IMG/VR virus record: IMGVR_UViG_3300025133_000026
Strand: one strand, 5' to 3'
Source of the DNA: a virus
Length of the DNA stretch: 64,000 nucleotides
Below the pieces are notes generated by a model, which did no database searches, had not been told where the DNA came from, and saw only the letters and a list, made by a program, of their open reading frames with translations. The first letter of the stretch is position 1; every line of letters starts with the position of its first letter. This document shows, piece by piece, positions 44,033 to 64,000 of this stretch. Position numbers and translations under genes: made by a program.

Positions 44033-45271
44033 TTAAACTACAGCGGTAGTAGCAGGAATTTCAGCAACCTCGCCAGATACAGTCTGCGTTAGCTGTGCCG
44101 GAAGAACGATCTGGTTGGGAACAACCTTAACATTCTTGGCGACTGCAATGGCAAGACCCTCATTATAGATACCAATGCCGTAACGTTCACGAAGCTTAAT
44201 CTTGCGGACATCGACACGAGGATCACTCCATTCATCGGTCGTAAGAGCTTCATCAACAAGCATTGCACCTAGCTCGCCTGACTGGAATACAACTACATCA
44301 GTAAGTAGAGTATCCGGATCAAATGGCATGAAGGGGCTAACAATTACTCGGAATGGGAAGGGCATGTAGCTCGGAAGAACGGGAGCACCAGTGGCATTCT
44401 GGTCATAGTCATTGACTCCAGAAGCACTTTGTGAACCAGCGTTTCCACCGGGAACGATATCACGACCACCACTTAGACCAAGCTTACCTTGGGGACCATT
44501 CTGGATCGGGTAACGAGCAGCGGGGGAACCCTGCCATCGCTGGAAGAAGCTTCCACCACCTGACTGTAGCGCGAAAGAACGCATAGTCGGATCCTTAACC
44601 CACATTAGCCATGTAAGCGGGTGAACAAGAATGGTATCAGGAACGAAGCCCTGATGGATAAGTTGTGCCATCATGTCGAAAAGGTCATCCATTATCATGG
44701 AACCATTCGCAGCACCAGCTAGGCCACGTCCAGTGGTTACACCGTGTGAACTAGTTGTGGGGTCAGCGTTATCGAATACCTTAACACCTAGCGAAAGGAC
44801 GTGTTGGAAGATCTTGGTTTCTTTGTGACGAGCCATCGCACGACCAGCTTGTCTCATGTATAGACCCATGAGATCAAACTGACTGTAGCGAATCATCTCT
44901 TCAGTGAAACCAAAAGCCATACCAACCTTACCTACGTTAGCGGTAACCGTCGCACCGCCAATCTGGGGCTGGTGCTCTGGGTACTCTTGACCTTCTGCAA
45001 TATCGTCAGCAGTCATTGCACCCATCGCTGGGAAAACAATTGACTGGCCATACTGATACGGAATCTGATCTAGCAAACTGGTACCGACAAGGAGAGGCTC
45101 TTGTGCCTCTTGGATGATCTGGACTACAACCTTAGGAAGTAGGGGGCCAGCATTGGATGTATTTAGAACATCCATCATCTCAAATCTTTTACCAGTCACG
45201 AGATCGAGTCCGCCACTCTGTAGAATAGAGCGAGCATGGTTCGTGTCTTTAAATTCAAAACCGGACATCAT
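44033..45271 (-). CDS. Major capsid protein, HK97 fold (412 aa)
   Basis: IAEGQEYPE, KVGMAFGFTEEMIRYSQFD, GRAMARHKE, PDTILVHPL, KLRERYGIGI; follows the protease and decoration genes. Confidence 0.9.
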   Translation of the reverse strand: MMSGFEFKDTNHARSILQSGGLDLVTGKRFEMMDVLNTSNAGPLLPKVVVQIIQEAQEPLLVGTSLLDQIPYQYGQSIVFPAMGAMTADDIAEGQEYPEHQPQIGGATVTANVGKVGMAFGFTEEMIRYSQFDLMGLYMRQAGRAMARHKETKIFQHVLSLGVKVFDNADPTTSSHGVTTGRGLAGAANGSMIMDDLFDMMAQLIHQGFVPDTILVHPLTWLMWVKDPTMRSFALQSGGGSFFQRWQGSPAARYPIQNGPQGKLGLSGGRDIVPGGNAGSQSASGVNDYDQNATGAPVLPSYMPFPFRVIVSPFMPFDPDTLLTDVVVFQSGELGAMLVDEALTTDEWSDPRVDVRKIKLRERYGIGIYNEGLAIAVAKNVKVVPNQIVLPAQLTQTVSGEVAEIPATTAVV

Positions 45272-46526: not shown

Positions 46527-48490
46527 TATGAATTCTCCTTGTCAGTTAGGTAATCCTTGATATCAAATCCAGAATCAATAAAGCCACGCTTCATCATGCT
46601 ATCAACATAGTTGAGCGCCGCCTCTTCATCCTGGTCATCACAAATTGAAGTATATCTCTCAACCACTAGCTGGCCCCATCTGTCAAGATTGTCGACAGTT
46701 TTTGCTGCCTTCTTTCCGTCTTGAGCAAGAGTAGGATCATCGAGAACAACTTCTGCTTTTTCTGTTTTTAGAATCTCAAGTTCACAGGCAGTCTTTAGAA
46801 GATCACCGACTGAATCTTTGAGTTCTTGAACATTCTTTTCCTTGAGACTGTCTTTGATGGCCTCAAGTCCTCCTTCAGTACCATTGAGTTTTTGAAGTAG
46901 GGAAACATGATCCGCGAGAAGAGTTTTGTACTCTCCCGAGATTTGCTCTAGCTGCTCATCAGCAGAGTCGGTTAGACCCTCCTGTGCAGTTAGTTGAGTT
47001 GCAAGCTGAGAAACTTGCTCCTCTAGAGCGGCGAGCTTATCGACCAGGGTGTTGAGGTCCGGAGCTTTCGCTACCTTTTCCTTTTCCTCTACGGCTGAAG
47101 TAAGCTGCGTAATCGCATCCTTAAGATCTTCAATCTCAAATTCTGAAGTACGCTTTAGTAAATCGGATAGTTCCATATCTAAATCGTCTTCCTTTGAATC
47201 TTTGTTAACTAGAACATATTCCCCGGTATCTTCTCCAGCTATGCTGAATTGATCCAAGGGACCATTGATCATCGCTCCGCGCAAACCTTTCTCCTCAAGT
47301 ATAGCATGAAGTTTTGCGTGAACTTTATATACATCTGTAGGCATTTGCTCTTTTCTGGATAAAGACCATTCGTCTTCTTCTCGAACTGTATTATCCCATT
47401 CCCAATGAAGACCATCATGGAATCTAAGCAAAGCCTGTTGTTCCATCATTGTCTCTCCATCGAATGCATCTTCCCAATTTACTTCGCGGCCCTCGTGTAG
47501 GTCTTTGTAAAGATCTAGGAGACAACTTTGAGTATCTGTCATTTGCTTAACTTCTACTTCTTTCTCTTCTTTGTCAGAAACAGAGAGACCATCAAGAACG
47601 TCAGTATTTGCCTGCTGTATGCCATCAACAACACCAGCACTATCAGTAATTGAAAGCAGCTCGTAAGGAGTCGATCGTAAATTGTCAGTATAAACCGGTG
47701 TAATTTCTTCAGCATTTTCATGTAAATCTACAATCCTCACACCTTCACTAACAGCCTCACTGTCTGCCGGAATATTTACAAAGGAGACCTCTTCGTATGA
47801 GAGATTTCCTGCGATAAGAAACATGGGCGCGCCATCAACCATTTCTCCAACATCATGCTCACAACGTCCATCACTAACCCAATCTGTTTTGCAACAAGAG
47901 CACACTGCGGCATCTGTGGCGGCGCGGGTAGACACAGTTTGGTAACGGCCATCAAGAACCTTTGTCATCGCGTCAGAGTCTGTCACTTGAAGTGTAGTTC
48001 GTCCAAACCCTAACCCCTGAAAGTCTTTAGAGAACAGAAGACCAGAGTGAACTAAAGATTCAACAGCATCGACAGCCTGCCACATTCTATTCATTGTGGG
48101 TAAAGCAGCTATAGCGTCCTTAACATCACTGTACTTGTCAGAAATACGACCAAACACTTCACCGGAAGTGTCTATATATTCTGCAGCGACTACACGACCC
48201 AAAGGAGCGTCATAAGTATTATGCTCTGTAAGAACAGGCTTGTTGAAGGATGATGTTCCTCCTCCGTCTTTGGAAACAAAGCTTTTGATACCGTCTCTCA
48301 TTTTTGCAGGCAAGTACAAACCATTGTTTCGGGTGATGCGAGCAGCGTGCGTTGCTCGTACAGTAATCTCTACTCCAGTACCCGCCCGGACAAAAGAATC
48401 AATCATATGAAGCTTTTGGTCCTTGTCCCATTGTTTTTTGAGGTCAGGGTTTAAGAGAATGGAGTCATAAATGTAAATTTTCTTAGCCAT
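46526..48490 (-). CDS. Prohead protease fused to scaffold (654 aa)
   Basis: KPVLTEHN...PLGRV, KVLDGRYQTVS, CSCC...CEH, YEEVSFVNIPAD; acidic coiled-coil C-terminus. Confidence 0.8.
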   Translation of the reverse strand: MAKKIYIYDSILLNPDLKKQWDKDQKLHMIDSFVRAGTGVEITVRATHAARITRNNGLYLPAKMRDGIKSFVSKDGGGTSSFNKPVLTEHNTYDAPLGRVVAAEYIDTSGEVFGRISDKYSDVKDAIAALPTMNRMWQAVDAVESLVHSGLLFSKDFQGLGFGRTTLQVTDSDAMTKVLDGRYQTVSTRAATDAAVCSCCKTDWVSDGRCEHDVGEMVDGAPMFLIAGNLSYEEVSFVNIPADSEAVSEGVRIVDLHENAEEITPVYTDNLRSTPYELLSITDSAGVVDGIQQANTDVLDGLSVSDKEEKEVEVKQMTDTQSCLLDLYKDLHEGREVNWEDAFDGETMMEQQALLRFHDGLHWEWDNTVREEDEWSLSRKEQMPTDVYKVHAKLHAILEEKGLRGAMINGPLDQFSIAGEDTGEYVLVNKDSKEDDLDMELSDLLKRTSEFEIEDLKDAITQLTSAVEEKEKVAKAPDLNTLVDKLAALEEQVSQLATQLTAQEGLTDSADEQLEQISGEYKTLLADHVSLLQKLNGTEGGLEAIKDSLKEKNVQELKDSVGDLLKTACELEILKTEKAEVVLDDPTLAQDGKKAAKTVDNLDRWGQLVVERYTSICDDQDEEAALNYVDSMMKRGFIDSGFDIKDYLTDKENS

Positions 48491-50615
48491 TCTTAATTCC
48501 TACAGAACACTTACAGTTTGGGTGATGAGGAGGAATATCGGCAATTGATACCTTTTTGACTTTCAACTTCACATCACTAAAGTTAGAACACTCTTCACAA
48601 TCAGACTCACTAGCACTATTATACACAGTTTCTATATTCTGGCTTCTGTAACCCATTAGTTTTCCATAGTTATAAGATCTAGTTAATTCAGTATTGTAAA
48701 TAGCGTTAAGCCGCCCCTTCGAAATATCAAGAACAGAAGTATCGGAGTCGGTCATTTTGTATTTTTTAGCTCTACGAGATATATCATCCCTAAGCTTAAG
48801 AAGATAGTGGTCGAGATAAGTTTCTACTGTCTTGAAACCTGTTACAACAACTGTATCTGTCAGGCTTAAGCCACTTGCCCTAACTCCGTTTCTGAATTCT
48901 CTAGCGGCGAGCGCTTTAAACTTGTCAGTAAGGTCACGATGCCAGGCATCGATAATCCGATCAATCCATGCTTCCGACGCGCTGGTATTCTTGTAAAAAA
49001 GAACATCAGATTTGATAACTTGGAAAGACTCATTGATTAAATTATCAATAAAGTCTTTATTTGTTTTCGGTCCTGTTCTAGTACCGTGCTGATTCGCTGG
49101 CCTGTTGCGTGCGGCTCCAGAACGTTGTCCACTTGTCTTGCCACTTGCTGGGGCAACTTTCTTTGCCTGTTGTTCTTGCTTAGCACGCTGATCACCCTTA
49201 GAGACATTCCCTGATTGCACTGCAGTTGAATTATTCTCTGCAGCAACTTCAGGTAAATATCTTTCATCAATAGATTGAATAATTAGCTCAGGCTCTTGAA
49301 TGAGTTTCCAATAAGTCTGCTCCCACCACTCTTCGTCTTCTGGAGTTTTTGGATCATGTCCAATCGCAACCCGAAGTTCATCAAAGTTGATAGCGTGCTG
49401 AGTGAAGAGCTGAACCATGTGGTTTTGCCAAGCAATCTTCTGGTCTTTGTTAATCTCCTTGAACTGAAGGTGAACCATTTTGTCAGAATCAGTGATGTCG
49501 AGACTACCTTCCAGCATAAGTTCTTGAATTACAAAATAATCAAACTGAGCTTCAAAATCATCCTGAATATCTTTAACCTCGTCTCTTAGGTTTTGAGACA
49601 TGGTATCAGCAGTGGAACGATTGCTTGTGCCGCCTTCTCCAAAGTCAACAGTTGAAACACCGAGACCAGCAAAAACCCTATCTCTAAAGTGCTTCAGGTA
49701 TCCCTCCGCACGTAAGGCTCGGCCCTCAGAACCAATAAGAGAAATGCTATGTCGTTCTGGAGTAACAATCATTCCCTCTGGGGGCATGTATTCAATTTCT
49801 TGCTGAACAACATCAATCTCTGAACTGCCGTCAGGGTATATTACAGCAGGATCGTTGTCTGTTCCGACCTGATACTGAAACAAAGGAAATAGGTTTTGAT
49901 AAACAAGAAGATCAATATTTTCTTCAATACGACGTAGAGTACGAATGTCATCGATGACTGGAGTCAGGAGTGGTGTACCCGTAGCAAAACCTGTCTTTTT
50001 GTCAATATAGAAGTGCACAACATCATTCGGAGAGAATTCTTTTTCTTTCCCCTCTACGGTTTGTTTGTATTTGATTACTTTTCCGTATTCGTTTCTTTTG
50101 ATCTCCACGGTTTCAGGAGGCATTATAAAATAACCGGCGACGGGTTTCAGGGAAGAACCTCCAATACGTCGAGCTTGGCCAGAAGAAATCTTTGGGTTTC
50201 TTGCCTTCACCAAGTAAGCGTTGGACTTTGTCACAAGATCATTGATGATTTCTTTTAGAAGAATTCTCCATGGCTTACCTTGGGCAAAACCTGTTTCTAA
50301 CATCCTCCTATTGACATAAGCCAAAGCATCTTGGTCTTTGGCTACTAGGTCCCAGCCCTCCTTGAAGGCAAGTCCTCTTTTCTTCCTATGTGTTTGTCTT
50401 ACATAGGCCTCGACATCCTCAATTCTATTAATCTCTTCAAGATCATATTCGGGCTGAGCGAAAGAATTGCGAGACCCATAAGACCTAGCGGGGTCAGATA
50501 TACGCTTCTGCATTGCCGGCTTCAGTTTCCCTTTTGGATTTTCTTCAGCATCGGACATTGTAAATGTAGAAGAGACTATATTGACCTTTATCTTGTTGTC
50601 AGTAGATTCAAGCAT
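48483..50615 (-). CDS. Portal protein with C-terminal MuF-like domain (710 aa)
   Basis: FIMPPETVEIKR, DVVHFYIDKK.GFATGTPLL.PVIDDI..LR portal motifs; C-terminal C..C...PPHHPNCKC. Confidence 0.85.
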   Translation of the reverse strand: MLESTDNKIKVNIVSSTFTMSDAEENPKGKLKPAMQKRISDPARSYGSRNSFAQPEYDLEEINRIEDVEAYVRQTHRKKRGLAFKEGWDLVAKDQDALAYVNRRMLETGFAQGKPWRILLKEIINDLVTKSNAYLVKARNPKISSGQARRIGGSSLKPVAGYFIMPPETVEIKRNEYGKVIKYKQTVEGKEKEFSPNDVVHFYIDKKTGFATGTPLLTPVIDDIRTLRRIEENIDLLVYQNLFPLFQYQVGTDNDPAVIYPDGSSEIDVVQQEIEYMPPEGMIVTPERHSISLIGSEGRALRAEGYLKHFRDRVFAGLGVSTVDFGEGGTSNRSTADTMSQNLRDEVKDIQDDFEAQFDYFVIQELMLEGSLDITDSDKMVHLQFKEINKDQKIAWQNHMVQLFTQHAINFDELRVAIGHDPKTPEDEEWWEQTYWKLIQEPELIIQSIDERYLPEVAAENNSTAVQSGNVSKGDQRAKQEQQAKKVAPASGKTSGQRSGAARNRPANQHGTRTGPKTNKDFIDNLINESFQVIKSDVLFYKNTSASEAWIDRIIDAWHRDLTDKFKALAAREFRNGVRASGLSLTDTVVVTGFKTVETYLDHYLLKLRDDISRRAKKYKMTDSDTSVLDISKGRLNAIYNTELTRSYNYGKLMGYRSQNIETVYNSASESDCEECSNFSDVKLKVKKVSIADIPPHHPNCKCSVGIKNG

Positions 50616-53260: not shown

Positions 53261-53880
53261 TATCTGTTAATCCTATTCATTTTCTTGGATTGATTAGAAG
53301 AGCCCAGCAGGGAGTGTGCAGCAGAAGCACCGACACCAGTGGCTGCAGCTAATCCTGTTCCTGTTCCTCCAGCTGCCCATGCAATCATCGTTGAGTATCC
53401 TCCACGTTGCTGTTGTTTAGAAAGTAAATTTACACGCCGGCGAGCAGTTTTTTTTACTATCATCTTTCTGTATTGTCCTGAGAGAGTTTTCCTTCCTACT
53501 CCAGCACCAATAGCCCCCATTGTAAAGTTAAGGAGTCCAGAATCGGTTGGGCTCATAAAAGTATTCGCAAGACCACCAACAGCCATTGTCGTAATCATAC
53601 CACCATGTGTTGCCCAAATACTTTGATGGTTTTTGTGCATAAACCTCATGGCTTGTCCTCCAGCTTTCCAGGCCGGTCGCGCATATTTTAATGCGCTAAC
53701 GCCAAGAGCTGTTTTGGCTCCCATACTAGCGCCAGAAACAAAGCCAGTTCCAAACTTATCGTTCCACACACCAGCCGCAAAGCCGCTCGCGAGTCCGGTA
53801 CCTAGAGCGGCACCAGCCGTAACGATTCCAGTTTTTATACCTGCTTGAACAATACTTCTGCTTACAATAGGAGAAATCAT
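53260..53880 (-). CDS. Gly/Ala-rich basic hydrophobic protein, possible ejection/internal head protein (206 aa)
   Basis: Composition; Gly-zipper-like helices. Confidence 0.4.
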   Translation of the reverse strand: MISPIVSRSIVQAGIKTGIVTAGAALGTGLASGFAAGVWNDKFGTGFVSGASMGAKTALGVSALKYARPAWKAGGQAMRFMHKNHQSIWATHGGMITTMAVGGLANTFMSPTDSGLLNFTMGAIGAGVGRKTLSGQYRKMIVKKTARRRVNLLSKQQQRGGYSTMIAWAAGGTGTGLAAATGVGASAAHSLLGSSNQSKKMNRINR

Positions 53881-56800
53881 TAGATCTTACCTCTCTTGGG
53901 CTTCCCTCTTCTTCGAATACCAGAAGATCTAGAGGTAGCTTTCTTAGTGTGTTTCCATTCGGTATCCGAACCCCATCCGGATCGAATGGTACCAGCATGG
54001 CCTTGGGGGGTCCTTTCAAAAGACCTTCCTCCAGGTTGTGCTTGTCTTCGTTGATGTTCTCTCTGTTGAACGTAACCAGGATCATAATTTACTTCTAAAA
54101 ACCCTGGCATCCCGGCACCGCCAGGAAAGTTCTTTTTAAAGTCATCCATTGCCTCTTTCGGCAGCGGACCATCATTATTAGCAAACCTTGCGCCGATGCC
54201 CTCTGTAAAGCCAACATTTGGACTACTCATAAGTCGGGGTGCATAATCAGACATCTCTAAAATATAAGCGATTAGGGCAAGATTAAGAGCATCGAGTCGG
54301 TGATCTCCAACCTTCGCATCGTTCATGCCATACCTTGGAATACCAGTAGGACTGATCCCGTCTTGAATGTAATTTAAAAGCTGTTTGTGAAGAGTAATGT
54401 CTTTATAAGAAAAACGAATTCTTCCTTGTTCGAATTGTCGGACTGAGTTTTGGATAAGAAAAGCCTTTGCATGTGTCTTCTCTCTTCTTCTTGTTACAGG
54501 ATTTCTGTATTCAACCTTACTTCCGAAATCATAAGCCTTTAGACGATCATAAAGAGCAGCACCTTCCGATCCTGGGTTCACAAACCTTTGTTTATGAGAC
54601 CATGCTTGCAAGGATTCAATCTGCGACCCGCCATAACCTCTATCGACATAGATGAATTTGGGAGACCACTTTTGATTCAAATCAATAATGACTTCCATTG
54701 CTTTGTGCTGTTGATAATTTTGTTTAGAGATATTGACAGCTTCAACTACCCAGAATTCAAAGTCTGGTGCATCAGGGTTTAGTCCAGTTACAACTACCTC
54801 TACTCCTGCATTTGTGTTCCAATCAACACCTATAGAGTAAATCCAAGACGGTTCTCTGCGATTAAGAGAATACTTCTTATCTCCAACTGTTACCTTTGCT
54901 ATCTGTCCATAAGAATATGGCTTCTCTGCTTCTGCAACATGGCGTGGAGAATACATACCAGCAACCTGGTCAATAAATACAGCCATGTATTCTTGCATGA
55001 AGGAGGTTTCGTCGGTTCCCTCGGCTTCAATTTCATCTTTAACTTGATCCCAGTGATCAAGGACCGTAGACGGAAAGTAGAATTCTTTGACATGTGCTGA
55101 GCCTGTGCACTGGTTATAGAACCACTCTCTCTTACCTGTAGGTGTACTGGAGGACATAACAGCAACATCCGGTGTTGTCGCCTGGATAGGCTGAACAACC
55201 TGCTTAATGTCCTCTGCAGGCATGAAGTCGGCCTCGTCAAGAAGGATGAGATCTGCCGAATTGTGGACCACAACTCCATCATTAACTATAAAGTTGTGTG
55301 TGCCCCAAACCTCTATATCATAAAGTGTATCAACCCCTTTGCTTTTGATAGACTTGATAGCATCATAACGAAGATCATTAAAACTCATATTCGGAAAGCC
55401 CGCACTGTTTGCTAACGATAAGATTTCTTTAGACTTTTCTTCTTTCCCAGGAATAAGTCCGATAGACTTTAGAAGTCGCTTTGCTTCATTCACAGAACGG
55501 ATAGTAACCACATATTGTCTTTTGTGTTTCTTGCCCTTTAGGTATTTTTCTCTAGTTCGTAAAGTTCCGAAAACACCAAAGCTGGTCACTAGTTGCAAAA
55601 ACTGAGAGGCCAGATCACAACTTGTAGATGTAAACCCTATCTCAACTTGTTTGTTCTTAGCAACAAGCCAGCCATCTGTAGCTATTAGGCCTCTTAATAG
55701 AGCTGCTCTAACTGCAGGACCAGAGGCCAGGAGCTTAGAAGACAACTTCTTCTCTGGGGCTAGACTTCCCCATATTCCAGCATCGTCTAAAAGCTCTGCA
55801 ATTTCTATATTTCTAGTTCGTGGTGCCTTGATACGAATATCAACTGCTTTTGAGTTTTCCTTTTGGTAACTACTCCAGTCTACGTCCCAATTATCGAGAA
55901 TTGAACAAAATAAAGATTCGATTCTTTTATTAGCGACAGTAAATCTAACCGAACTGTGTTTTATAGCTTTTCTTCCACAACTTCCATCACCAGCCATTAG
56001 GCCAACAAACAGTGCTTCCTCTTCTGTGAAATGAACACCCTGTTTGTCAAGAGTGAAATTCTTTACTGTAGCAAGATGATTACTCTTTTTTAAATCTTTC
56101 AGTTTATTCCAAGAAAAGGTAGATTTCCCTAATTCAGAATATTTCTTTCTTATTCCTCGAGTAACAGTGCTGCTCAGAAGCCTGTGATCTTTTGAACAAA
56201 CAAGACTTCGGCCAGAGCGTAACCGAACTTCATATTTTTCCTTCTCTGTAGTATCAAACACTTTGGAAACCATAGAGGTGACTACCTTTCCATTGTTTGT
56301 TACAGAGAGGATGAGGTCATTCTTCTCGATATTAGAAATCTTCTTTCGTGACCCATCGGCCATCCAAACAAGAGTTTCTCCAGAAAGACACTGTCCACGA
56401 AGAGTGGACGCATTCTGTCCTGTACTAGCTCCTGTGGTGAAGCCCTTGATTGTTGCACCATTAGTAAAGACAAGCTCATGATAGGGAGTCTTTACGTTCC
56501 TCACAAGCTTAATGTCTGGATTTCTCGAAACAAGCTTCTTGATCTCTTCGAAAATCATAGAGATTTGAGCCAAGAATGGAGATACAACTAAAATCCGAGG
56601 GCCTCTCATGATCGGGGTGCCAGCGGCATCCACCTCATCACTTTTAACATAGGCGGTAATTGCTTTTCTAAGAGTAGAGACACACTCTTCGAATGTCTTT
56701 CCAGAACGCCGGCCAGCTCTCGATACTCTGTATTTTGCGGTACATTTAGCGACCACCCTCTGGTGATCACGAAAGTCTACACCCAGGACTTTTTTAGCCC

Positions 56801-57407
56801 AGAGGACAGGGTCTCTTACAATTCTCAATTGTTCTATTTCTTCTTCTGTCAGTTCTTTGACTAGTTCTCTTTTTAAATCATAACTTTCAGGAATAAAATC
56901 ACACTTGACAAGAAAGGCAGTTAATGCTTTCCAAGGAATCCATCCTTCGATCTTCTGGGTTCTGCTCGAAAAGCCACCCTTGCATGTCTGGCATACAGCA
57001 TCAGAGATTTGTTGCTTACTTTCTCGATAGACCCTTGTGTGGTCTTGGTCATTTTGACAAATACCATAATAAACAGAAGTTCCCACCAAGCATTTGTCTT
57101 TGTGCTTTTCTTTCAGAATTACTCTCTGGCCTTTGCGCAGTCGCCCAATCTTTTCTTTGAATTGATCATCCCCAAAAACGTTTACTCCCCTTACAGAAAT
57201 TTGGTATTCATTCCTTCCAGCATATTTTTGCAAGTGATCCATCTGACAAACTACACAGGAATTGTCAATATTCTTCGTTTTAATATTGTATTTTTCTTTG
57301 AAAAACTCTACCAAATCAGAACTAGGACGCATAGAATAGTCTAGGTAAGCTACCCCGTATTCGTTCTCCATGTAAAGATATTTCATATCCTCGTGAAGAT
57401 AGTCCAT
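53880..57407 (-). CDS. terL: Terminase large subunit with intein (1175 aa precursor)
   Basis: Walker A VSRAGRRSGKT; Walker B LILLDEA restored after splicing; FMQEYMA; nuclease IGVDWN and DHRLDAL. Confidence 0.95.
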   Translation of the reverse strand: MDYLHEDMKYLYMENEYGVAYLDYSMRPSSDLVEFFKEKYNIKTKNIDNSCVVCQMDHLQKYAGRNEYQISVRGVNVFGDDQFKEKIGRLRKGQRVILKEKHKDKCLVGTSVYYGICQNDQDHTRVYRESKQQISDAVCQTCKGGFSSRTQKIEGWIPWKALTAFLVKCDFIPESYDLKRELVKELTEEEIEQLRIVRDPVLWAKKVLGVDFRDHQRVVAKCTAKYRVSRAGRRSGKTFEECVSTLRKAITAYVKSDEVDAAGTPIMRGPRILVVSPFLAQISMIFEEIKKLVSRNPDIKLVRNVKTPYHELVFTNGATIKGFTTGASTGQNASTLRGQCLSGETLVWMADGSRKKISNIEKNDLILSVTNNGKVVTSMVSKVFDTTEKEKYEVRLRSGRSLVCSKDHRLLSSTVTRGIRKKYSELGKSTFSWNKLKDLKKSNHLATVKNFTLDKQGVHFTEEEALFVGLMAGDGSCGRKAIKHSSVRFTVANKRIESLFCSILDNWDVDWSSYQKENSKAVDIRIKAPRTRNIEIAELLDDAGIWGSLAPEKKLSSKLLASGPAVRAALLRGLIATDGWLVAKNKQVEIGFTSTSCDLASQFLQLVTSFGVFGTLRTREKYLKGKKHKRQYVVTIRSVNEAKRLLKSIGLIPGKEEKSKEILSLANSAGFPNMSFNDLRYDAIKSIKSKGVDTLYDIEVWGTHNFIVNDGVVVHNSADLILLDEADFMPAEDIKQVVQPIQATTPDVAVMSSSTPTGKREWFYNQCTGSAHVKEFYFPSTVLDHWDQVKDEIEAEGTDETSFMQEYMAVFIDQVAGMYSPRHVAEAEKPYSYGQIAKVTVGDKKYSLNRREPSWIYSIGVDWNTNAGVEVVVTGLNPDAPDFEFWVVEAVNISKQNYQQHKAMEVIIDLNQKWSPKFIYVDRGYGGSQIESLQAWSHKQRFVNPGSEGAALYDRLKAYDFGSKVEYRNPVTRRREKTHAKAFLIQNSVRQFEQGRIRFSYKDITLHKQLLNYIQDGISPTGIPRYGMNDAKVGDHRLDALNLALIAYILEMSDYAPRLMSSPNVGFTEGIGARFANNDGPLPKEAMDDFKKNFPGGAGMPGFLEVNYDPGYVQQREHQRRQAQPGGRSFERTPQGHAGTIRSGWGSDTEWKHTKKATSRSSGIRRRGKPKRGKI
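55260..56390 (-). mobile_element. Intein with LAGLIDADG homing endonuclease (377 aa) in terL
   Basis: N-splice LRGQ/CLSGETLVWMADG; C-splice YDIEV...NFIVNDGVVVHN/SAD; LAGLIDADG blocks FVGLMAGDGS and LLRGLIATDGW. Confidence 0.95.
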
Positions 57408-58195: not shown

Positions 58196-58704
58196 TATCT
58201 ACCCCCTCTCCGGAGCTTATTTAAAGCAAGTGGAAGACCTTGTGTTCCTCCACTGCGATTTCTTCTCAATCTTCTTCTTGAGAAGGTCATCATCTCTGCT
58301 TGTTGAAAGTTAGCTGCTCTTCTTGACTGAAGCATTGTTTTTCCCAACTTATCTAGGTGTTTTGCCATAGCATAGTTTTGTTGAGAGCCTGTTGCTGTAC
58401 CACTGAATAACGCGTAGCTTGATGTTCCCACCATGGCGGTGCCAGCAACTCTCCCCACCCATTTGTTTTGGCTACCTGTTAAAAAGTGTCTTGTTCCTGT
58501 GCTTGCAAAATTGTAACCTTCCATAGCCCCACCACCAACATGATCAGCTAATTCTTTCGAATATCTTGCTCCTGTCTTTGCATGACCATAGCCTGCTGTG
58601 AGTGTTCTCTTTCCAACATTATATCCTGTTGTGAGTGCTCTTTTTCCAGCACTACCCCAGGCGGTCGCTTTTGTCGCCCCACTTTTTATCCAACCAAACA
58701 TCAA
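58195..58704 (-). CDS. Small Gly-rich basic protein (169 aa)
   Basis: ORF track; short internal repeat KRALTTGY/KRTLTAGY; Arg-rich tail. Confidence 0.45.
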   Translation of the reverse strand: MMFGWIKSGATKATAWGSAGKRALTTGYNVGKRTLTAGYGHAKTGARYSKELADHVGGGAMEGYNFASTGTRHFLTGSQNKWVGRVAGTAMVGTSSYALFSGTATGSQQNYAMAKHLDKLGKTMLQSRRAANFQQAEMMTFSRRRLRRNRSGGTQGLPLALNKLRRGGR

Positions 58705-60794
58705 CTACCTCCTTTTGAATGTCCTATAGGGGATTTTAACATGCGCAATGCAGCATCCTTCTGAAGACGAGACATCTTCTGTTTTCTAAGGTTTGTTTTT
58801 CTTAGAAGATTTTGTCTTCGAATCTTCTCTGGGTCATTGCCCAATAGATTCATTCTTCTTTTTATCGGCTTTTCAAGAAGTGTTTTTCTTACCCCAAGCC
58901 CGCCCGGCAGTGGCGGCAATTTGTTTAATTCCTCTGCCGCTGTCTTGGCTGCTCTCCTGATGGGTTCGGGGTAAGTTTGAAAACTATCTTTGTTTTTTCT
59001 AAAAAAGGATAAAAGGAATCCCTTTATTTGGCTTGACACCCCCTCAGACCTTAATTCTTTTCTAAACTGAGGGTAGCCACCAAAAATAAATCCTCTTTCT
59101 TGTTCTTGTCCAACAAGTGCTAAAAATTCATGATGAGCTGCAATACCAGACTCTGTTGAGTTTCTGGTTTTTGTATTCCAACGCCAAGCATCTTCAATGA
59201 TTTCACTGATGTCGGCATCTTTGACAAAACCCTCTAGGAAAGTTTCTTCCCTGGCTCCAGTGCGTTTTCTAGGCTGACTCCAAAAATGTTCCCTTACTTT
59301 TTGGTGCACTCTTTCATGGGCAATAATTTGCCTGAGCTCTTCTCCTCGAAGATCTTTTCTGATTAATGAAAAAGTATTAAATCCAGACTTTTCTGCTTCG
59401 AAAATGGAAGAGAACAAAGAAGAAACTTCTTCTTGTAGTTTGCTGCCTTGCTTTACATCTACTTCCGATAATCGTTTTTTTAAGGTTGGCAATAAAAAAG
59501 ACAGACCCTTTGACCCTTTTCCTAAAGCTAAGCGTTGTGATAATTCTATAGAAATGGAACTTATCCCTCTCCAGCCACTACCAAACTCTGTCATCCCTTT
59601 ACGCATACCCTGGGCCCAGCCCTTATGGCTAAGCCCCTCTAGAGTATTGCGATTACTCTGGTGTCCAGAAAACGCTGCTCTGTTATGTCCACCTCTCGAA
59701 AGATTACCGAGAGACTCAAAGACAGAAAGATCTTCTGTAGTCATATATCCTTTAGCTTCGATATCCCATAGACTAAACATAATTTCAGCTTGAGTCTTAT
59801 CTTCTGCTAACCGATTCATAAGAGTATAAGTATTGAAGGTTGTGTGCTTTCCTGCTCTCTTGTCTACCTTCTGTTGGGCTTGCCAGAAGGCATGCCCCCA
59901 CATTCCCTTTTCTGTCTCGATCGCCTCGTTCCATTTTTTATAGAAGTTGCGTCTATCGATAATGGATTGTTCTGCTCTACCAAAAGGCAAATAAGACGCA
60001 GAGCCCTCGCCAACAAGACGGAGGTTGATATTCTGTCCTTGTTCGTCATAGACAACACCAACGGCACGTCCATAAGTCTCATCTTCTGGATCAAAGATAA
60101 TTGTAATATTATCTTGACTGTCAAGTATTTCCTGGAATCTTTCTCCAGCATTCTTTCCATATGGCTGGCCCCCAGCAATACGAACAGGAGACATTGGGTC
60201 AGAGTCGTGAGACTCTACTTCGGGAGCATCAATACCAGCAAGACGAATAGAGACTGCTTTTCCTGTCGGAGTTCCGAGGAGTCCTCTTTTCTTAATGAGC
60301 AGGGTGTCTGCATCTTCCGCTTTTAGTTCGTATTCGTCTTTATTCAGGGTTACATAATGAAGATCTTTCTTTGTTCCCTGGTTCAAACCTTCCCAAGTGC
60401 CGTATTCTTCATCATGAAGAGCAAGAGGCCCAAGAGTGTTGATAGAAGCAAGTTGCAGTCTTGCTTCTCGTTGCTTGGATTCAATTTCTTGTTCTAGCAA
60501 ATATCTGCGAGCGGGATCTTGCCAAATAGTTTTTTGGAATCTTTTCAGCTTCGCCCTTGGATCATCTGAGTTATAAACACCAATAATAGCGTTATATAAG
60601 CCCTGCCAGCCACTGCCAAATTGAGAATTTACTTTTCTCATAGCAGCAGCCATGCCTCCATGGATGAGGCCACTTATTTGCAGATGAGAATCTCCCCGCG
60701 TAGCGGGGCGGCGCACCTGTTCCCAAGCGTCGATCATTGTGCTCGCGCCTAGTATTTTCCCTTTTCGATTTTCATGATTAATCCAATTGAACAT
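58701..60794 (-). CDS. Polyvalent-type protein: SNase (thermonuclease) domain plus HExxH metallopeptidase-like domain (697 aa)
   Basis: DADT...RLAGIDAPE...TYGRAVG...NINLRLV.EG.A (SNase); IIAHERVH (59304-59318) with downstream HEFLA; two FGSGW-ending repeats. Confidence 0.75.
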   Translation of the reverse strand: MFNWINHENRKGKILGASTMIDAWEQVRRPATRGDSHLQISGLIHGGMAAAMRKVNSQFGSGWQGLYNAIIGVYNSDDPRAKLKRFQKTIWQDPARRYLLEQEIESKQREARLQLASINTLGPLALHDEEYGTWEGLNQGTKKDLHYVTLNKDEYELKAEDADTLLIKKRGLLGTPTGKAVSIRLAGIDAPEVESHDSDPMSPVRIAGGQPYGKNAGERFQEILDSQDNITIIFDPEDETYGRAVGVVYDEQGQNINLRLVGEGSASYLPFGRAEQSIIDRRNFYKKWNEAIETEKGMWGHAFWQAQQKVDKRAGKHTTFNTYTLMNRLAEDKTQAEIMFSLWDIEAKGYMTTEDLSVFESLGNLSRGGHNRAAFSGHQSNRNTLEGLSHKGWAQGMRKGMTEFGSGWRGISSISIELSQRLALGKGSKGLSFLLPTLKKRLSEVDVKQGSKLQEEVSSLFSSIFEAEKSGFNTFSLIRKDLRGEELRQIIAHERVHQKVREHFWSQPRKRTGAREETFLEGFVKDADISEIIEDAWRWNTKTRNSTESGIAAHHEFLALVGQEQERGFIFGGYPQFRKELRSEGVSSQIKGFLLSFFRKNKDSFQTYPEPIRRAAKTAAEELNKLPPLPGGLGVRKTLLEKPIKRRMNLLGNDPEKIRRQNLLRKTNLRKQKMSRLQKDAALRMLKSPIGHSKGGS

Positions 60795-62130: not shown

Positions 62131-62787
62131 TTATTTTCCTTCCGCGAAGCGAAATACACCAGAGGGGAGAAGATAGGCGGCGGTGTTACCACTACCAACG
62201 AGAGGAGGTGTAGTCTCTTCTAATAGTTTTGTTCTGACTCTTCCTCTTTTATCAATAGAAGTGTCTCTTACTTGACCGTAGGTCAGGCCTCTATGATAGG
62301 AAGGGAGGGCGATATGGACATAGTCCATTCCTAATTCTTTGTTAAAACAGTAAGAAAGCTCACCATAAAAGAGATGTATCTTCCTACAGTATTCCCAAAC
62401 ATCTCTAGCTGGAACTCCGGGAACTAAGAAATTGGCCGCGGAGCCAGTGGTATGCAAAGAAGAACCATCATATTCTCTGAGTTGTCTGTCTCTCAGGCCC
62501 CAGATGTCAAGACCTTTATAGATAACTTCTTTGTTTTTTTTATCTATAGACCTTTCTACCCAAGACATACCCTTGAGGACGACCAAAGGCCGTCCATAAA
62601 AATCAATAATAGGTTCGAGAAGATCCTCACACAAAGAAGCAAGATTGTATCTATAGTTGTTACCCCAGAGAAAGTTCTTATCTTCAAGATTGCCACCCGC
62701 AGGGGTGTGACATAAGTCCCAAAGACTAATATGGGCAGAGAGCATGTCAGCTTGGGTAAATAACCATTTGTTTTGAGTTCCTAACAC
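62131..62787 (-). CDS. Peptidase M15A-like protein, possibly degenerate (218 aa)
   Basis: LCEDLLEPI...YGRPLVV, SSLHTTGSAANF, YVHIA; GTG start with GGAGG SD. Confidence 0.6.
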   Translation of the reverse strand: MLGTQNKWLFTQADMLSAHISLWDLCHTPAGGNLEDKNFLWGNNYRYNLASLCEDLLEPIIDFYGRPLVVLKGMSWVERSIDKKNKEVIYKGLDIWGLRDRQLREYDGSSLHTTGSAANFLVPGVPARDVWEYCRKIHLFYGELSYCFNKELGMDYVHIALPSYHRGLTYGQVRDTSIDKRGRVRTKLLEETTPPLVGSGNTAAYLLPSGVFRFAEGK

Positions 62788-62821
62788 AGTCTGACCTCCT
62801 GGGAAAATATATGTTACATAG

Positions 62822-62832
62822 ATTTTATACCA
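62822..62832 (-). promoter_or_regulatory. Possible extended -10 element (TGgTATAAAAT) for the leftward operon
   Basis: Motif in the AT-rich divergent gap about 35 nt upstream of the first minus-strand gene; no convincing -35. Confidence 0.25.
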
Positions 62833-63029
62833 TATGCTGGAAACTTAGAAAAAATATATGAAAAATAGAGAATAAAAATGAAATGACTTTATAGAAAGGC
62901 GAAAATGCAAGAAATCAAAAAGAAGTGCTCTATAGGAAGGTGAAATTGTGGGGAAAATATAGGAGTAGGTATGATAGATGGGTGAGTTCCGTACTCTCGA
63001 GTTTGGAGCCCACCCCCTCTCTCACCCCA

Positions 63030-63117
63030 GTGTCCACCCCCGGACACACGCCTCTGTGCTCACCACACAGAGGTCTCTTCCCCTTCGTCTATGCCTTGGG
63101 TGAGCAAGGCAATGGAG
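63030..63117 (+). promoter_or_regulatory. Structured leader unit 0 (sequence-divergent, same kissing-loop architecture)
   Basis: Stem cctctgtg/cacagagg with loop CTCACCA; 18-nt linker; stem tgccttg/caaggca with loop GGTGAG; then ATGGAG SD. Confidence 0.75.
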
Positions 63118-63123
63118 TACAGC

Positions 63124-63327
63124 ATGTCCTCGGATATGTTCTACCGCCTCGTCCAGCTCCGGCTGGAAGCAGAGACCCGCAAGAACTCTTCGGAGTTCTT
63201 CCGGGCGCTCTACTTCCTTCGTGCCGCTGTGCACGCGGCAACCCTCGCCGCCACCGACCCCAGGCTGGTGTGGGTTGTCAACCGGCACCTGTACTCGGCT
63301 GAGCTGATCCTCAGCCGAGCGCGGTAG
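63124..63327 (+). CDS. Small hypothetical protein (67 aa, MSSDMFYRLVQLR...)
   Basis: GGAG SD 6 nt upstream of ATG 63124; GC3-rich codons; TAG at 63325-27. The track starts it at 63091, which lies inside the leader hairpin. Confidence 0.7.
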   Translation: MSSDMFYRLVQLRLEAETRKNSSEFFRALYFLRAAVHAATLAATDPRLVWVVNRHLYSAELILSRAR

Positions 63328-63465
63328 TCTTCTGCACTCCCCATCCACACCACACAGGTGTGGGTGGGGAGATCAGAGGGTGAACTCGTCCACCTCTCTC
63401 ATCTTGGTCCTGTCCCAGGATGCCACCTCACCCAGTAACTGCCATTTGACAGGATGGCAATGGAG
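63328..63465 (+). repeat. Structured leader repeat, copy 1 (138 bp)
   Basis: Direct repeat with 63569-63705 and 63835-63973; four hairpins ending at the GGAG SD. Confidence 0.95.
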
Positions 63466-63470
63466 CTCCC

Positions 63471-63563
63471 ATGTCTGACGACATGTTCGAGATCCTCCTC
63501 GCCATGGCTGGCTCAGCCATGGTGACGACGGTCTTTTGGGGGGGCATCTACCTGACTTGGTAG
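63471..63563 (+). CDS. 30-aa predicted single-pass membrane peptide MSDDMFEILLAMAGSAMVTTVFWGGIYLTW
   Basis: SD at repeat end, ATG 5 nt later, clean stop before the next repeat; below the ORF-track size cutoff. Confidence 0.65.
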   Translation: MSDDMFEILLAMAGSAMVTTVFWGGIYLTW

Positions 63564-63568
63564 ATGTC

Positions 63569-63705
63569 TCTTCTGCACTCTCCATCCACACCACACAGGT
63601 GTGGGTGGGGAGATCAGAGGATAAACTCGTCTATTCTCTCATCTTGGTCCTGTCCCAGGATGCCACCTCACCCAGTAACTGCCATTTGACAGGATGGCAA
63701 TGGAG
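63569..63705 (+). repeat. Structured leader repeat, copy 2 (137 bp)
   Basis: Differs from copy 1 only at stem positions, by compensatory or G-U-preserving changes. Confidence 0.95.
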
Positions 63706-63710
63706 TCAAC

Positions 63711-63824
63711 ATGTCTAACAACATCGTTGAGCGCCTCAACCTGGCCATCCTGACGGGTGGTCTGGGCATGATCGTCGCAATCTGCGGCATTCATGCCCTT
63801 GGGGCGGTTCTCCGGGCCATGTAG
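63711..63824 (+). CDS. 37-aa predicted single-pass membrane peptide MSNNIVERLNLAILTGGLGMIVAICGIHALGAVLRAM
   Basis: SD at repeat end; hydrophobic core; stop 10 nt before the next repeat. Confidence 0.65.
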   Translation: MSNNIVERLNLAILTGGLGMIVAICGIHALGAVLRAM

Positions 63825-63834
63825 CCCGGGGAAC

Positions 63835-63973
63835 CTTCTGCACTCCCCATCCACACCACACAGGTGTGGGTGGGGAGATCAGAGGGTGAACTCGTCCACC
63901 TCTCTCATCACAGCTCTGTCCTGTGATGCCACACAACTCAGTAACTGCCATTTGACAGAGGAATGGTTTGGAG
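63835..63973 (+). repeat. Structured leader repeat, copy 3
   Basis: 5' part identical to copy 1; 3' hairpins diverged with compensatory changes. Confidence 0.95.
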
Positions 63974-63979
63974 TACATC

Positions 63980-64000
63980 ATGTTGTACGTGATCAACGCT
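63980..64000 (+). CDS. Start of the next cassette ORF (MLYVINA..., partial)
   Basis: GGAG SD then ATG at 63980; truncated by the window edge. Confidence 0.55.

What the first reader, a model, noticed from the sequence alone, without database searches (positions are those of the whole stretch)
63051..63973. Novel kissing-loop RNA element with three independent compensatory loop pairs directly 5' of each Shine-Dalgarno
Each leader ends with hairpin A, an exactly 18-nt linker, hairpin B and then the SD. In unit 0, loop A is CTCACCA (63059-65) and loop B is GGTGAG (63099-104). In units 1 and 2, loop A is TCCTGTC (63408-14) and loop B is TTGACAGG (63446-53). In unit 3, loop A is CTCTGTC (63914-20) and loop B is TGACAGAGG (63953-61). 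Loops A and B are reverse-complementary over 6-7 nt in every case despite different sequences. Stems also covary (atcttgg/ccaggat, atcacag/ctgtgat, cctctgtg/cacagagg; tgccat/atggca, tgccttg/caaggca). G-U pairs work only on the plus strand, favouring RNA. The geometry recalls the regulatory kissing loop of cobalamin riboswitches, but no receptor domain or B12 box is present. I do not recognise it as a known family. It may be a translational enhancer, nuclease-blocking knot or ligand/protein switch.
Basis: seen in the sequence. Interest (0 to 1): 0.92.

Follow-up and report, generated by a model that had tools for sequence, protein, structure and literature searches.

The report
Kissing-hairpin leader in phage micro-gene cassettes
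Four tiny early genes of an uncultured marine giant phage each sit behind a folded RNA leader in which the tips of two hairpins pair with each other; the fold is real and uncatalogued, but it is one optional part of a larger repeated RNA-processing cassette and its function is untested.

Summary
In all four leaders of the window (u0 63051-63111, u1 63400-63459, u2 63640-63699, u3 63906-63968), two hairpins are separated by a 17-18-nt pyrimidine-rich linker. Their loops are Watson-Crick complementary over 6-7 nt, in three sequence versions. The stems covary, and the G.U pairs fit only the + strand. Among about 4,300 other adjacent hairpin pairs from this phage and relatives, only one (AT-only) reaches 7 nt. 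Nothing in Rfam matches.

The pair is one module of a repeated intercistronic cassette. The cassette holds a 21-bp RNase III-like hairpin H1, a small hairpin H2, a CUCUCUCA box, the A::B kissing pair, the SD and a start-codon hairpin C. It lies in the early micro-ORF operon of a marine jumbo myovirus.

The next two cassettes of the operon keep H1 and H2 but lack the kissing pair. The same operon holds a pistol ribozyme. A relative carries type II hammerheads at the equivalent positions.

Best reading (0.45): a compact 5'-proximal fold that stabilises or insulates the processed micro-gene mRNAs and presents the SD.

Only three versions exist, all from one phage lineage. This scan has noted other uncatalogued kissing-loop leaders on other phage DNA.

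The parts
62788..62977 (.). AT-rich divergent intergenic region between the minus-strand structural/lysis block and the plus-strand GC-rich micro-ORF operon; presumed promoter region
   Evidence: Strand switch and jump in GC content. A direct repeat lies at 62804-62822 and 62851-62869. The sigma-70 scan gave no convincing plus-strand promoter.
62978..63050 (+). 5' part of the u0 leader: GGGUGAG at 62980-62986, CUCUCUCA box at 63017-63024, and an extra hairpin at 63030-63047. It has no H1 because no gene lies upstream
   Evidence: Sequence and fold. The motifs GAGCCCACCCC and CUCACCC are shared with the first leader of relative L008.
63051..63111 (+). u0 kissing module: hairpin A (stem 63051-58/63066-73, loop 63059-65), 18-nt linker 63074-91, hairpin B (stem 63092-98/63105-11, loop 63099-104)
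   Evidence: Exact match to the described parts; loop-loop duplex of 6 bp, -9.7 kcal/mol; scores 8 in the background scan.
63114..63140 (+). u0 SD GGAG (63114-17), ATG (63124-26) and start-codon hairpin C (63121-63140). ORF0 of 67 aa runs 63124-63327
63329..63379 (+). H1 of u1: 6 bp, a 2x2 internal loop and 15 bp (21 bp in all), RNase III-substrate-like. Further copies lie at 63570-63620 (u2) and 63835-63885 (u3)
   Evidence: RNAalifold on five copies gives 21 pairs, 5 of them with compensatory changes, and conserved U.G pairs. Fold z-scores are -4 to -4.6.
63380..63401 (+). Small hairpin H2 (GGUG/CACC in u1 and u3, GAUA/UAUU in u2) and the CUCUCUCA box (63394-63401), which abuts hairpin A
   Evidence: The differences between u1 and u2 cluster in H2 and are compensatory. 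The box recurs at L010 ~4504-4517 without hairpins A and B.
63400..63459 (+). u1 kissing module: hairpin A (63400-07/63415-22, loop 63408-14), 17-nt linker 63423-39, hairpin B (63440-45/63454-59, loop 63446-53)
   Evidence: RNAfold predicts both hairpins.
63462..63485 (+). u1 SD GGAG (63462-65), ATG (63471-73) and start-codon hairpin C (63470-63485). ORF1 of 30 aa runs 63471-63563
63640..63699 (+). u2 kissing module, identical in sequence to that of u1. SD at 63702-05, ATG at 63711; ORF2 of 37 aa runs 63711-63824
63906..63968 (+). u3 kissing module: hairpin A (63906-13/63921-28, loop 63914-20), 17-nt linker 63929-45, hairpin B (63946-51/63963-68, loop 63952-62)
   Evidence: 7-bp loop-loop duplex, -10.5 kcal/mol. 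Three stem-A pairs and two loop-loop pairs changed on both sides relative to u1.
63970..63993 (+). u3 SD GGAG (63970-73), ATG (63980-82) and start-codon hairpin C (63977-63993). The ORF runs off the window and is 99 aa on L005

Best explanation
The element is a cis-acting fold of the plus-strand mRNA. Two hairpins pair loop to loop (6-7 bp) and form a compact pseudoknotted rod of about 21 stacked base pairs, bridged by a 17-18-nt unpaired pyrimidine-rich linker.

It is the SD-proximal module of a repeated intercistronic cassette in the early micro-gene operon of a marine jumbo myovirus.

Proposed mechanism; every step below is inferred:
1. The operon is transcribed as a polycistronic RNA.
2. 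The 21-bp hairpin H1 after each stop codon is cut, most likely by host RNase III. Alternatively the RNA is cut or started at the CUCUCUCA box.
3. The kissing pair then lies at or near the new 5' end.
4. There it protects the short mRNA against 5'-end-dependent decay and keeps upstream pyrimidine-rich sequence from mispairing.
5. It leaves the GGAG exposed in a gap of about 10 nt between hairpin B and hairpin C, which holds the AUG. This sets a defined, probably low, initiation rate for small membrane peptides.

Shown: the anatomy, the covariation, the non-randomness and the context.
Inferred: cleavage, stabilisation and the effect on translation.
For: The structure is real:
- Coordinates are exact and the loop duplexes are -8 to -10.5 kcal/mol.
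- All four units score 7-8 nt of loop complementarity, against one of about 4,300 background hairpin pairs at 7 or more.
- Complementarity ends exactly at the loop edges.
- Relative to u1, stem A of u3 changed both sides of three pairs and the loop-loop helix changed both sides of two. u0 has a wholly different loop pair on a recognisably homologous hairpin B and SD frame (family D4, 15).
- Linker length is conserved (17-18 nt) although the linker sequences are unrelated.
- G.U pairs fit only the coding strand.

Cassette context:
- H1 has 21 bp and 5 covarying pairs.
- Leaders are invariant among strain variants. All 8-12 SNPs fall inside ORF0 and none in about 590 nt of leader. ORF4 diverges right after an identical u3 leader.
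- The AUG of u0-u4 sits in a 6-8-bp hairpin that later genes lack.

Processing context:
- A pistol ribozyme above the Rfam threshold lies about 4.3 kb beyond the window end in the same operon (47.3 bits against a gathering score of 34.5).
- Relative L008 has three type II hammerheads at the equivalent intercistronic positions, with 96.5% of cells paired and 7 pairs changed on both sides.
- In two of the three, cleavage would leave a 5' hairpin whose loop (UGUUG) can pair with a CAACA stretch in the tail upstream of the SD, directly 5' of it in copy 2. This is close to the topology of A, linker, B, SD.
- Tandem ribozymes in phage polycistronic RNAs, and the loop I-to-tail pseudoknot of type II hammerheads, are documented in PMC3088659.
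Against: - Only three distinct versions exist, all from one phage lineage. No relative carrying the module was found in any collection searched, so no R-scape-grade statistics are possible.
- Cassettes u4, u5 and the one at L010 ~4477-4545 work without the module, so it is not required for processing or translation in general.
- Nearest-neighbour energies do not clearly favour the kissing fold. It is roughly iso-energetic with the nested alternatives.
- In u0 and u3, loop B has a second possible partner upstream.
- No RNA-level data are available.
- RNase III cleavage of H1 and the position of the 5' end are assumptions.
- Thermodynamic folding predicts the SD-AUG stretch to be mostly paired with the first codons. 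The fold may therefore repress translation and not enhance it.
Confidence: 0.45

Rival explanations
1. Conformational switch or binding site. The kissing fold is one of two states, or is the docking surface for a phage or host protein or a small ligand. It gates access to the SD and AUG, so that early micro-peptides are made only at a set time.
For: - The kissing fold and the nested alternatives are near iso-energetic.
- Loop B of u0 can also pair with an upstream CUCACCC, and loop B of u3 with the CCUCUCUC box.
- In u4 the pyrimidine box pairs with the SD and closes a three-way junction around its two hairpins.
- The start codon is sequestered in hairpin C in u0-u4.
Against: - The alternative partner of loop B is absent in u1 and u2, so no second state is conserved.
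- No unpaired nucleotides are conserved between u0 and u1-u3 that could form a ligand pocket.
- There is no aptamer-like domain and no Rfam riboswitch hit.
Confidence: 0.17
2. DNA-level cassette. The repeats are promoter or terminator signals for a phage RNA polymerase, or recombination cassettes that shuffle micro-ORFs. The loop complementarity is then a by-product of nested inverted repeats and not a functional RNA contact.
For: - The phage encodes an 1820-aa protein with a DFDKD motif in the tail block, like virion two-barrel RNA polymerases (lead from scan note e1-5771441).
- Phage P23-45 has repeated conserved promoter and terminator motifs in its pre-early region, transcribed by a tape-measure-fused RNA polymerase (PMC10770324).
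- Leaders are identical across strains while the ORFs between them diverge, as with the PeSL cassettes of T4-type phages (PMC2839356).
- A sequence box (AGTTTCAC, then TCTC) recurs even where H2 cannot form.
Against: - G.U pairs in A, B and H1 work only in the plus-strand RNA.
- Complementarity is confined to the loops and is kept by compensatory change in three versions. A protein-binding DNA site would not need this.
- No sigma-70-type promoter is found in the units.
- Ribozymes in the same operon and in the relative imply long transcripts that are cut, not one transcript per cassette.
- This rival explains H2 and the box better than it explains A::B.
Confidence: 0.15
3. A new self-cleaving ribozyme, or a dedicated site for a phage endoribonuclease. 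The cassette, or its A::B part, cuts itself or directs a sequence-specific cut at the CUCUCUCA box. It would replace the hammerhead or pistol used elsewhere.
For: - It occupies the same intercistronic position as three type II hammerheads in relative L008, and a pistol lies in the same operon.
- New ribozyme classes have been found by this kind of genomic association (from memory: Weinberg et al. 2015).
- The topology of hairpin loop, linker and complementary strand closed by a second stem resembles pistol P1-PK-P2.
Against: - No conserved unpaired core nucleotides are shared by u0 and u1-u3.
- There is no CUGAUGA/GAAA core and no Rfam ribozyme hit at E up to 10.
- H1 already offers a conventional RNase III site.
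- The module is absent from u4 and u5, which keep H1.
Confidence: 0.07
4. Chance, or a neutral by-product of repeat evolution with no function.
For: The sample is very small (three versions). u0 stem A and the u3 loops reuse nearly the same 7-mer pair, which suggests shuffling of short motifs.
Against: - The background rate of 7 nt or more of loop complementarity is about 1 in 4,300 hairpin pairs.
- A simple calculation gives 3e-4 to 1.5e-3 per unit.
- Linker length is conserved, and strain variants show no SNPs in the leaders.
Confidence: 0.06

Closest known systems
RNase III processing hairpins between early genes of phage T7 (R0.3-R1.3) and Bacillus phage SP82 (from established knowledge, not re-read here)
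   Same: Long imperfect hairpins of about 20 bp with an internal loop. They are repeated after each early cistron of a polycistronic RNA and leave structured mRNA ends. H1 fits this anatomy.
   Different: Cleavage is not shown here. Those sites have no kissing-hairpin module between the cut and the SD.
Ribozyme-punctuated phage and prophage operons (Perreault et al. 2011, PMC3088659)
   Same: Same genomic position, between small co-directional phage genes. Relative L008 has three type II hammerheads there, and in two of them the stem I loop can pair with the 3' tail upstream of the SD. The same operon as the window has a pistol ribozyme.
   Different: The window units lack every catalytic core motif. 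The loop partner is presented in a second hairpin loop, not in a single-stranded tail.
PeSL promoter-plus-stem-loop cassettes of T4-type phages (PMC2839356, PMC4122927)
   Same: Near-identical regulatory repeats flank small, fast-evolving ORFs in a plastic early region. The repeats are conserved while the ORFs between them are swapped or diverge.
   Different: PeSLs are a sigma-70 early promoter plus a terminator-like stem-loop. No such promoter is found here, and the leaders carry an extra RNA tertiary module.
Known kissing-loop RNAs: cobalamin riboswitch L5-L13, ColE1 RNA I/RNA II, HIV-1 DIS, phi29 pRNA (established knowledge)
   Same: A 6-7-bp Watson-Crick helix between two hairpin loops. 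7-nt loops that pair fully occur in ColE1.
   Different: There is no aptamer or B12 box and no Rfam RF00174 hit. The contact is intramolecular and sits beside an SD that is not part of either loop.
Other uncatalogued kissing-loop leader RNAs noted by this scan in other phages (e1-5679132, e1-3441540, e1-5625626; AI notes, unchecked)
   Same: Two-hairpin phage leaders whose loops stay complementary through compensatory change, and which are absent from Rfam.
   Different: In most of those, one loop pairs with the RBS or with a terminator hairpin. Here the SD lies outside both loops. There is no sequence similarity to the unit searched, the u1 leader.

Membership tests
Intramolecular kissing-loop (loop-loop pseudoknot) motif, generic | Two local hairpins whose loops are Watson-Crick complementary over at least 5-6 nt, kept through compensatory change | tested here: met
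   6-7 bp in three sequence versions. All four units are outliers against about 4,300 background pairs. There are two double changes between u1 and u3, and u0 is fully different.
Intramolecular kissing-loop motif, generic | Physical formation of the loop-loop helix in the RNA | not testable with these tools
   Needs SHAPE/DMS, NMR or native-gel assays. Nearest-neighbour sums are only roughly iso-energetic with the nested folds.
Cobalamin riboswitch (Rfam RF00174) | B12-box aptamer core with a regulatory L5-L13 kissing loop | tested here: not met
   No hit in 62700-64000, even at E up to 10.
Hammerhead ribozyme, type II (RF02276) | CUGAUGA and GAAA core, UH cleavage triplet, three helices | tested here: not met
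   No core motif pair in 62900-64000 and no Rfam hit. The feature is met in relative L008: 25.9 bits over the full model, below the gathering score of 37, but three copies with an invariant core and 7 covarying pairs.
Pistol ribozyme (RF02679) | P1 loop pseudoknot plus a conserved AAA-containing linker, P2, P3 and a G-U cleavage site | tested here: not met
   No hit in the window. The linker is 17-18 nt without the conserved nucleotides, and there is no P3. A true pistol lies at L010 3822-3883.
RNase III intercistronic processing site (T7 R-site type), for H1 | About two turns of dsRNA, often with an internal loop, between cistrons of a polycistronic RNA | tested here: met
   6 + 15 bp around a 2x2 internal loop, placed right after each stop codon, with 5 covarying pairs.
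RNase III intercistronic processing site, for H1 | Actual cleavage by RNase III | not testable with these tools
PeSL cassettes | Sigma-70 early promoter next to a stem-loop | tested here: not met
   The consensus scan finds no credible plus-strand promoter within the units. The one hit overlaps loop B and the start codon of u3.
Any Rfam 15 family | Covariance-model match | tested here: not met
   Only sub-threshold miRNA-like hits to the H1 hairpin. There are no gathering-level hits anywhere in the window.

The most novel reading that the evidence does not exclude
The H1, CUCUCUCA box and kissing-pair cassette is a functional replacement for the self-cleaving ribozyme plus pseudoknot used at the same junctions in a relative and elsewhere in this operon. 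It would be either a new self-cleaving or nuclease-guiding RNA class, or a dedicated 5'-end 'cap' fold that blocks 5'-dependent decay. If so, the long-unexplained purpose of ribozymes between phage genes would be to create short mRNAs with a defined, pseudoknotted 5' end next to the SD.
Probability: 0.15. Interest if true: 0.8.

Novelty: new variant of a known kind. Interest (0 to 1): 0.5.

Why it matters
Ribozymes between small phage genes have been known since 2011 without a tested purpose. Here three different devices occupy equivalent junctions in one phage lineage:
- a type II hammerhead with a loop-tail pseudoknot;
- a pistol ribozyme;
- a plain long hairpin followed by a kissing-hairpin pair.

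In the hammerhead and kissing-pair cases (the pistol's surroundings were not analysed), a folded, loop-paired structure ends up just upstream of the ribosome-binding site. This suggests a testable common function: making short, protected, translation-tuned messages.

The kissing pair is also a compact, sequence-programmable natural module. It has three orthogonal loop codes on one scaffold, which could be of use as an mRNA insulator.

Tried and rejected
- No whole genome is held for the window.
- Looking for more copies or relatives mostly failed. blastn against phage records found nothing.
- Exact or degenerate H1 patterns in IMG/VR gave 0 hits.
- The one metagenome scan gave one true contig (L005) and one chance hit.
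- Protein-anchored scans in IMG/VR with the 218-aa and 697-aa neighbours gave none.
- The 218-aa protein, ORF4 and the 603/715-aa early protein have no homologues beyond themselves.
- The u0 motif pattern gave 39 hits in IMG/VR, of which only the L008 contig is related.
- The GNRA-hairpin pattern gave one possibly related cassette (L057) and one chance hit.
- Contigs of the closer relatives P0002 and P0004 do not reach the early operon. The distant relative L059 (26% GC) has no such element.
- All assemblies of this phage break inside the repeat array, so the window end is a contig end.
No read mapping was therefore done, and there is no evidence on expression or RNA ends.
- MAFFT could not align the four modules in structural register. 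The pair counts for A, B and the loop-loop helix were therefore made by hand and by script, not with the count of structure pairs.
- Readings rejected: integron attC sites (no R'/R'' cores), intrinsic terminators (no U tract after H1 or B), and a sigma-70 promoter in loop B (its -10 would overlap the start codon, and u0 lacks it).
- Pfam finds nothing in the micro-ORF products.
Full report
**What the window is.** Positions 1-62787 carry minus-strand genes of a tailed phage. These include a large terminase with an intein (53880-57407), a portal (48483-50615), a major capsid protein (44033-45271), an SNase-domain protein (58701-60794) and three giant tail-block proteins. The portal is 32-42% identical to those of Bacillus phage 0305phi8-36-like jumbo myoviruses. 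An identical neighbouring protein lies on a 178-kb contig. The 1820-aa tail-block protein carries DFDKD, as virion two-barrel RNA polymerases do. At about 62990 the coding strand flips and GC content rises from about 40% to nearly 60%. What follows is an array of tiny plus-strand ORFs of 67, 30, 37 and 99 aa, each behind a GGAG and each preceded by a repeated leader of about 145 nt. The window end coincides with the contig end in every assembly found, because assemblers break in the repeats.

**Check of the observation.** Every coordinate and motif in the finding is exact.
- Hairpin A is in fact 8 bp in all units, with a 7-nt loop.
- The linker is 17-18 nt and pyrimidine-rich. Its length is conserved, but its sequence is unrelated between u0 and u1-u3.
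- Hairpin B has a 6-7 bp stem (5 standard pairs in u3) with a loop of 6, 8 or 11 nt.
- GGAG starts 2-3 nt after B.
- The loops pair over 6 bp (u0, u1/u2) or 7 bp (u3), at -8.1 to -10.5 kcal/mol. The complementarity stops exactly at the loop edges.
- Relative to u1, u3 changed both sides of three stem-A pairs and of two loop-loop pairs.
- u0 has a wholly different loop pair on a hairpin B and SD frame that is still recognisably homologous (repeat family D4).
- G.U pairs in stem A (u1/u2), stem B (u3) and H1 work only on the plus strand.

As a control, I enumerated adjacent hairpin pairs in the rest of the window on both strands and in five other loci, about 4,300 pairs. About 20 show 6 nt of loop complementarity. 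Only one, an AT-only pair in a 26% GC phage, shows 7 nt. All four units score 7-8. u1 and u2 are identical in this module, so there are three versions.

**The larger cassette.** The pair is only the SD-proximal part of each repeat.
- *H1.* Straight after each stop codon comes H1 (for example 63329-63379): 6 bp, a 2x2 internal loop and 15 bp. Across five copies, including two from the continuation contig, RNAalifold finds 21 pairs, five with compensatory changes, and conserved U.G pairs. It is followed by no U tract. This is the anatomy of an RNase III site such as those between T7 early genes. u0, which has no upstream gene, lacks H1.
- *H2.* A small hairpin follows. The differences between u1 and u2 cluster there and are compensatory.
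- *CUCUCUCA box.* This box abuts hairpin A.
- *Hairpin C.* Downstream, the AUG of each of the first five ORFs lies in a 6-8-bp hairpin. It is built from different sequence in u3. Later genes of the operon lack it. The GGAG thus sits in a single-stranded gap of about 10 nt between B and C.
- *Strain variation.* Among strain variants, all 8-12 SNPs fall inside ORF0 and none in about 590 nt of leader. ORF4 diverges completely right after an identical u3 leader. This resembles the PeSL cassettes of T4-type phages (PMC2839356).

**Continuation of the operon.** L005 and L010 extend the array.
- Cassettes u4 and u5 keep H1 and H2, with covariation, but not the kissing pair.
- u4 has two abutting hairpins enclosed by a helix between the pyrimidine box and the SD.
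- A later cassette (L010 ~4477-4545) has the CUCUCUCA box and then an unstructured leader.
- The module is therefore optional.
- Further downstream a second repeated cassette type appears: a GNRA-capped hairpin plus a conserved box.
- The continuation also holds four tRNAs and a pistol ribozyme above the Rfam threshold (L010 3822-3883; 47.3 bits against 34.5).

**A relative.** The neighbouring 269-aa protein has a 43%-identical homologue on L008. The equivalent divergent early operon there carries three type II hammerheads between its small genes.
- One scores 25.9 bits on RF02276 over the full model, below the gathering score.
- All three share an invariant core. On the hammerhead structure, 96.5% of cells pair and 7 pairs changed on both sides.
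- In two of the three copies the stem I loop (UGUUG) is complementary to a CAACA stretch in the 3' tail upstream of the SD, directly 5' of it in copy 2. This is the pseudoknot described for type II hammerheads in PMC3088659.
- After self-cleavage, such an mRNA would start with a hairpin whose loop pairs, across a 20-26-nt linker, with sequence next to or near the SD. That is close to the topology of hairpin A, linker, loop B and SD in the window.

**Interpretation.** The most economical reading is that all these junction elements serve the same end. They cut a long early transcript into short messages whose 5' region is a compact, loop-paired fold adjoining the ribosome-binding site. In the window the cutting would be done at H1 (RNase III) or at the box, and the fold would be the kissing pair.
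- The stacked A, loop-loop and B helices would make a rod of about 21 bp. The conserved 17-18-nt linker is the length needed to bridge it.
- The likely effects are protection from 5'-end-dependent decay, insulation of the SD from the pyrimidine-rich upstream sequence, and a fixed, probably low, initiation rate. The low rate is suggested by the sequestered AUG and by the small hydrophobic products (30, 37 and 41 aa).
- I put 0.45 on this mechanism and about 0.75-0.8 on the loop-loop contact forming at all.

**Rivals.**
- *Two-state switch or protein/ligand site (0.17).* Alternative partners exist for loop B in u0 and u3, but not in u1/u2.
- *DNA-level promoter, terminator or recombination cassette for a phage RNA polymerase (0.15).* The precedent is P23-45 (PMC10770324). 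It explains H2 and the box better than it explains A::B.
- *New ribozyme or nuclease-guide (0.07).* There are no conserved unpaired core nucleotides.
- *Chance (0.06).*

**Comparison and novelty.**
- No Rfam family matches. The cobalamin, hammerhead and pistol membership tests fail in the window.
- H1 fits the structural definition of an RNase III intercistronic site.
- I know of no published description of the kissing pair as a leader module beside an SD. I found none in the two full-text searches run for it.
- This scan has, however, already noted other uncatalogued kissing-loop leaders in unrelated phages (unchecked AI notes). The general phenomenon therefore recurs.
- I rate it a new variant of a known kind: structured intercistronic cassettes of phage early operons.

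**Limits.** There are three versions from one lineage, no RNA data, and energies that do not decide between the folds. Interest is 0.5.

Noticed in passing
L010 3822-3883 (+), about 4.3 kb beyond the window end in the same operon: Pistol self-cleaving ribozyme above the Rfam gathering score (47.3 bits against 34.5), inside a gene-poor stretch of about 1.5 kb that looks full of structured RNA.
   Followed up: partly
L008 minus strand 5618-5556, 4136-4076, 3782-3720: Three type II hammerhead ribozymes between small early genes of a related phage. The core is invariant, 7 pairs covary, and in two copies the stem I loop can pair with the tail upstream of the SD. Only one copy is seen by Rfam, and it scores below threshold.
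   Followed up: yes
window 63121-63140, 63470-63485, ~63707-63730, 63977-63993; L010 ~131-148: The start codons of the first five micro-ORFs each lie in a 6-8-bp hairpin (CAUGUC-N4-GAYAUG in three units, a longer bulged helix around the AUG in u2, different sequence in u3). This also explains the shared MSxDM N-termini. Later genes of the operon lack it.
   Followed up: partly
window 63204-63282 (ORF0): All SNPs between strain variants (8 in L001, 12 in L004) cluster in two patches of ORF0, and those translated change residues. The flanking leaders show none.
   Followed up: partly
L010 3484, 4213, 4386, 4477, 4938, 6598, 6958, 7750; also L057 minus strand ~10540: A second repeated cassette type: an 8-bp GNRA-capped hairpin followed by a conserved box (ACTTGTGAGAG-like). 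It sits after stop codons and, at L010 7750, before a tRNA gene. One near-identical copy lies in an unrelated-looking IMG/VR contig. The cassette at ~3484 is followed by a T-arm-like mini-tRNA piece (~3510-3560).
   Followed up: no
L010 ~300-625 (= L005 ~740-1064): About 330 nt without an ORF after cassette u5, partly AT-rich, with several hairpins. It may be a small RNA or a long leader of the 603-aa early gene.
   Followed up: no
window 25300-30762 (-): The 1820-aa tail-block protein carries DFDKD at residue 1396, consistent with a virion-packaged two-barrel RNA polymerase as proposed by another reader. It has only a weak local match (residues 220-388) to Pseudanabaena phages.
   Followed up: partly
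window 53880-57407 (-): The large terminase is interrupted by an intein with a LAGLIDADG endonuclease domain.
   Followed up: no
window 62804-62822 and 62851-62869: An AT-rich 19-nt direct repeat in the divergent intergenic region, possibly a promoter or operator element.
   Followed up: no
L003 vs L005, ORF4: Two strain variants share a 100% identical u3 leader and the first 8 codons, and then diverge strongly. The leader therefore acts as a recombination or gene-conversion boundary.
   Followed up: partly
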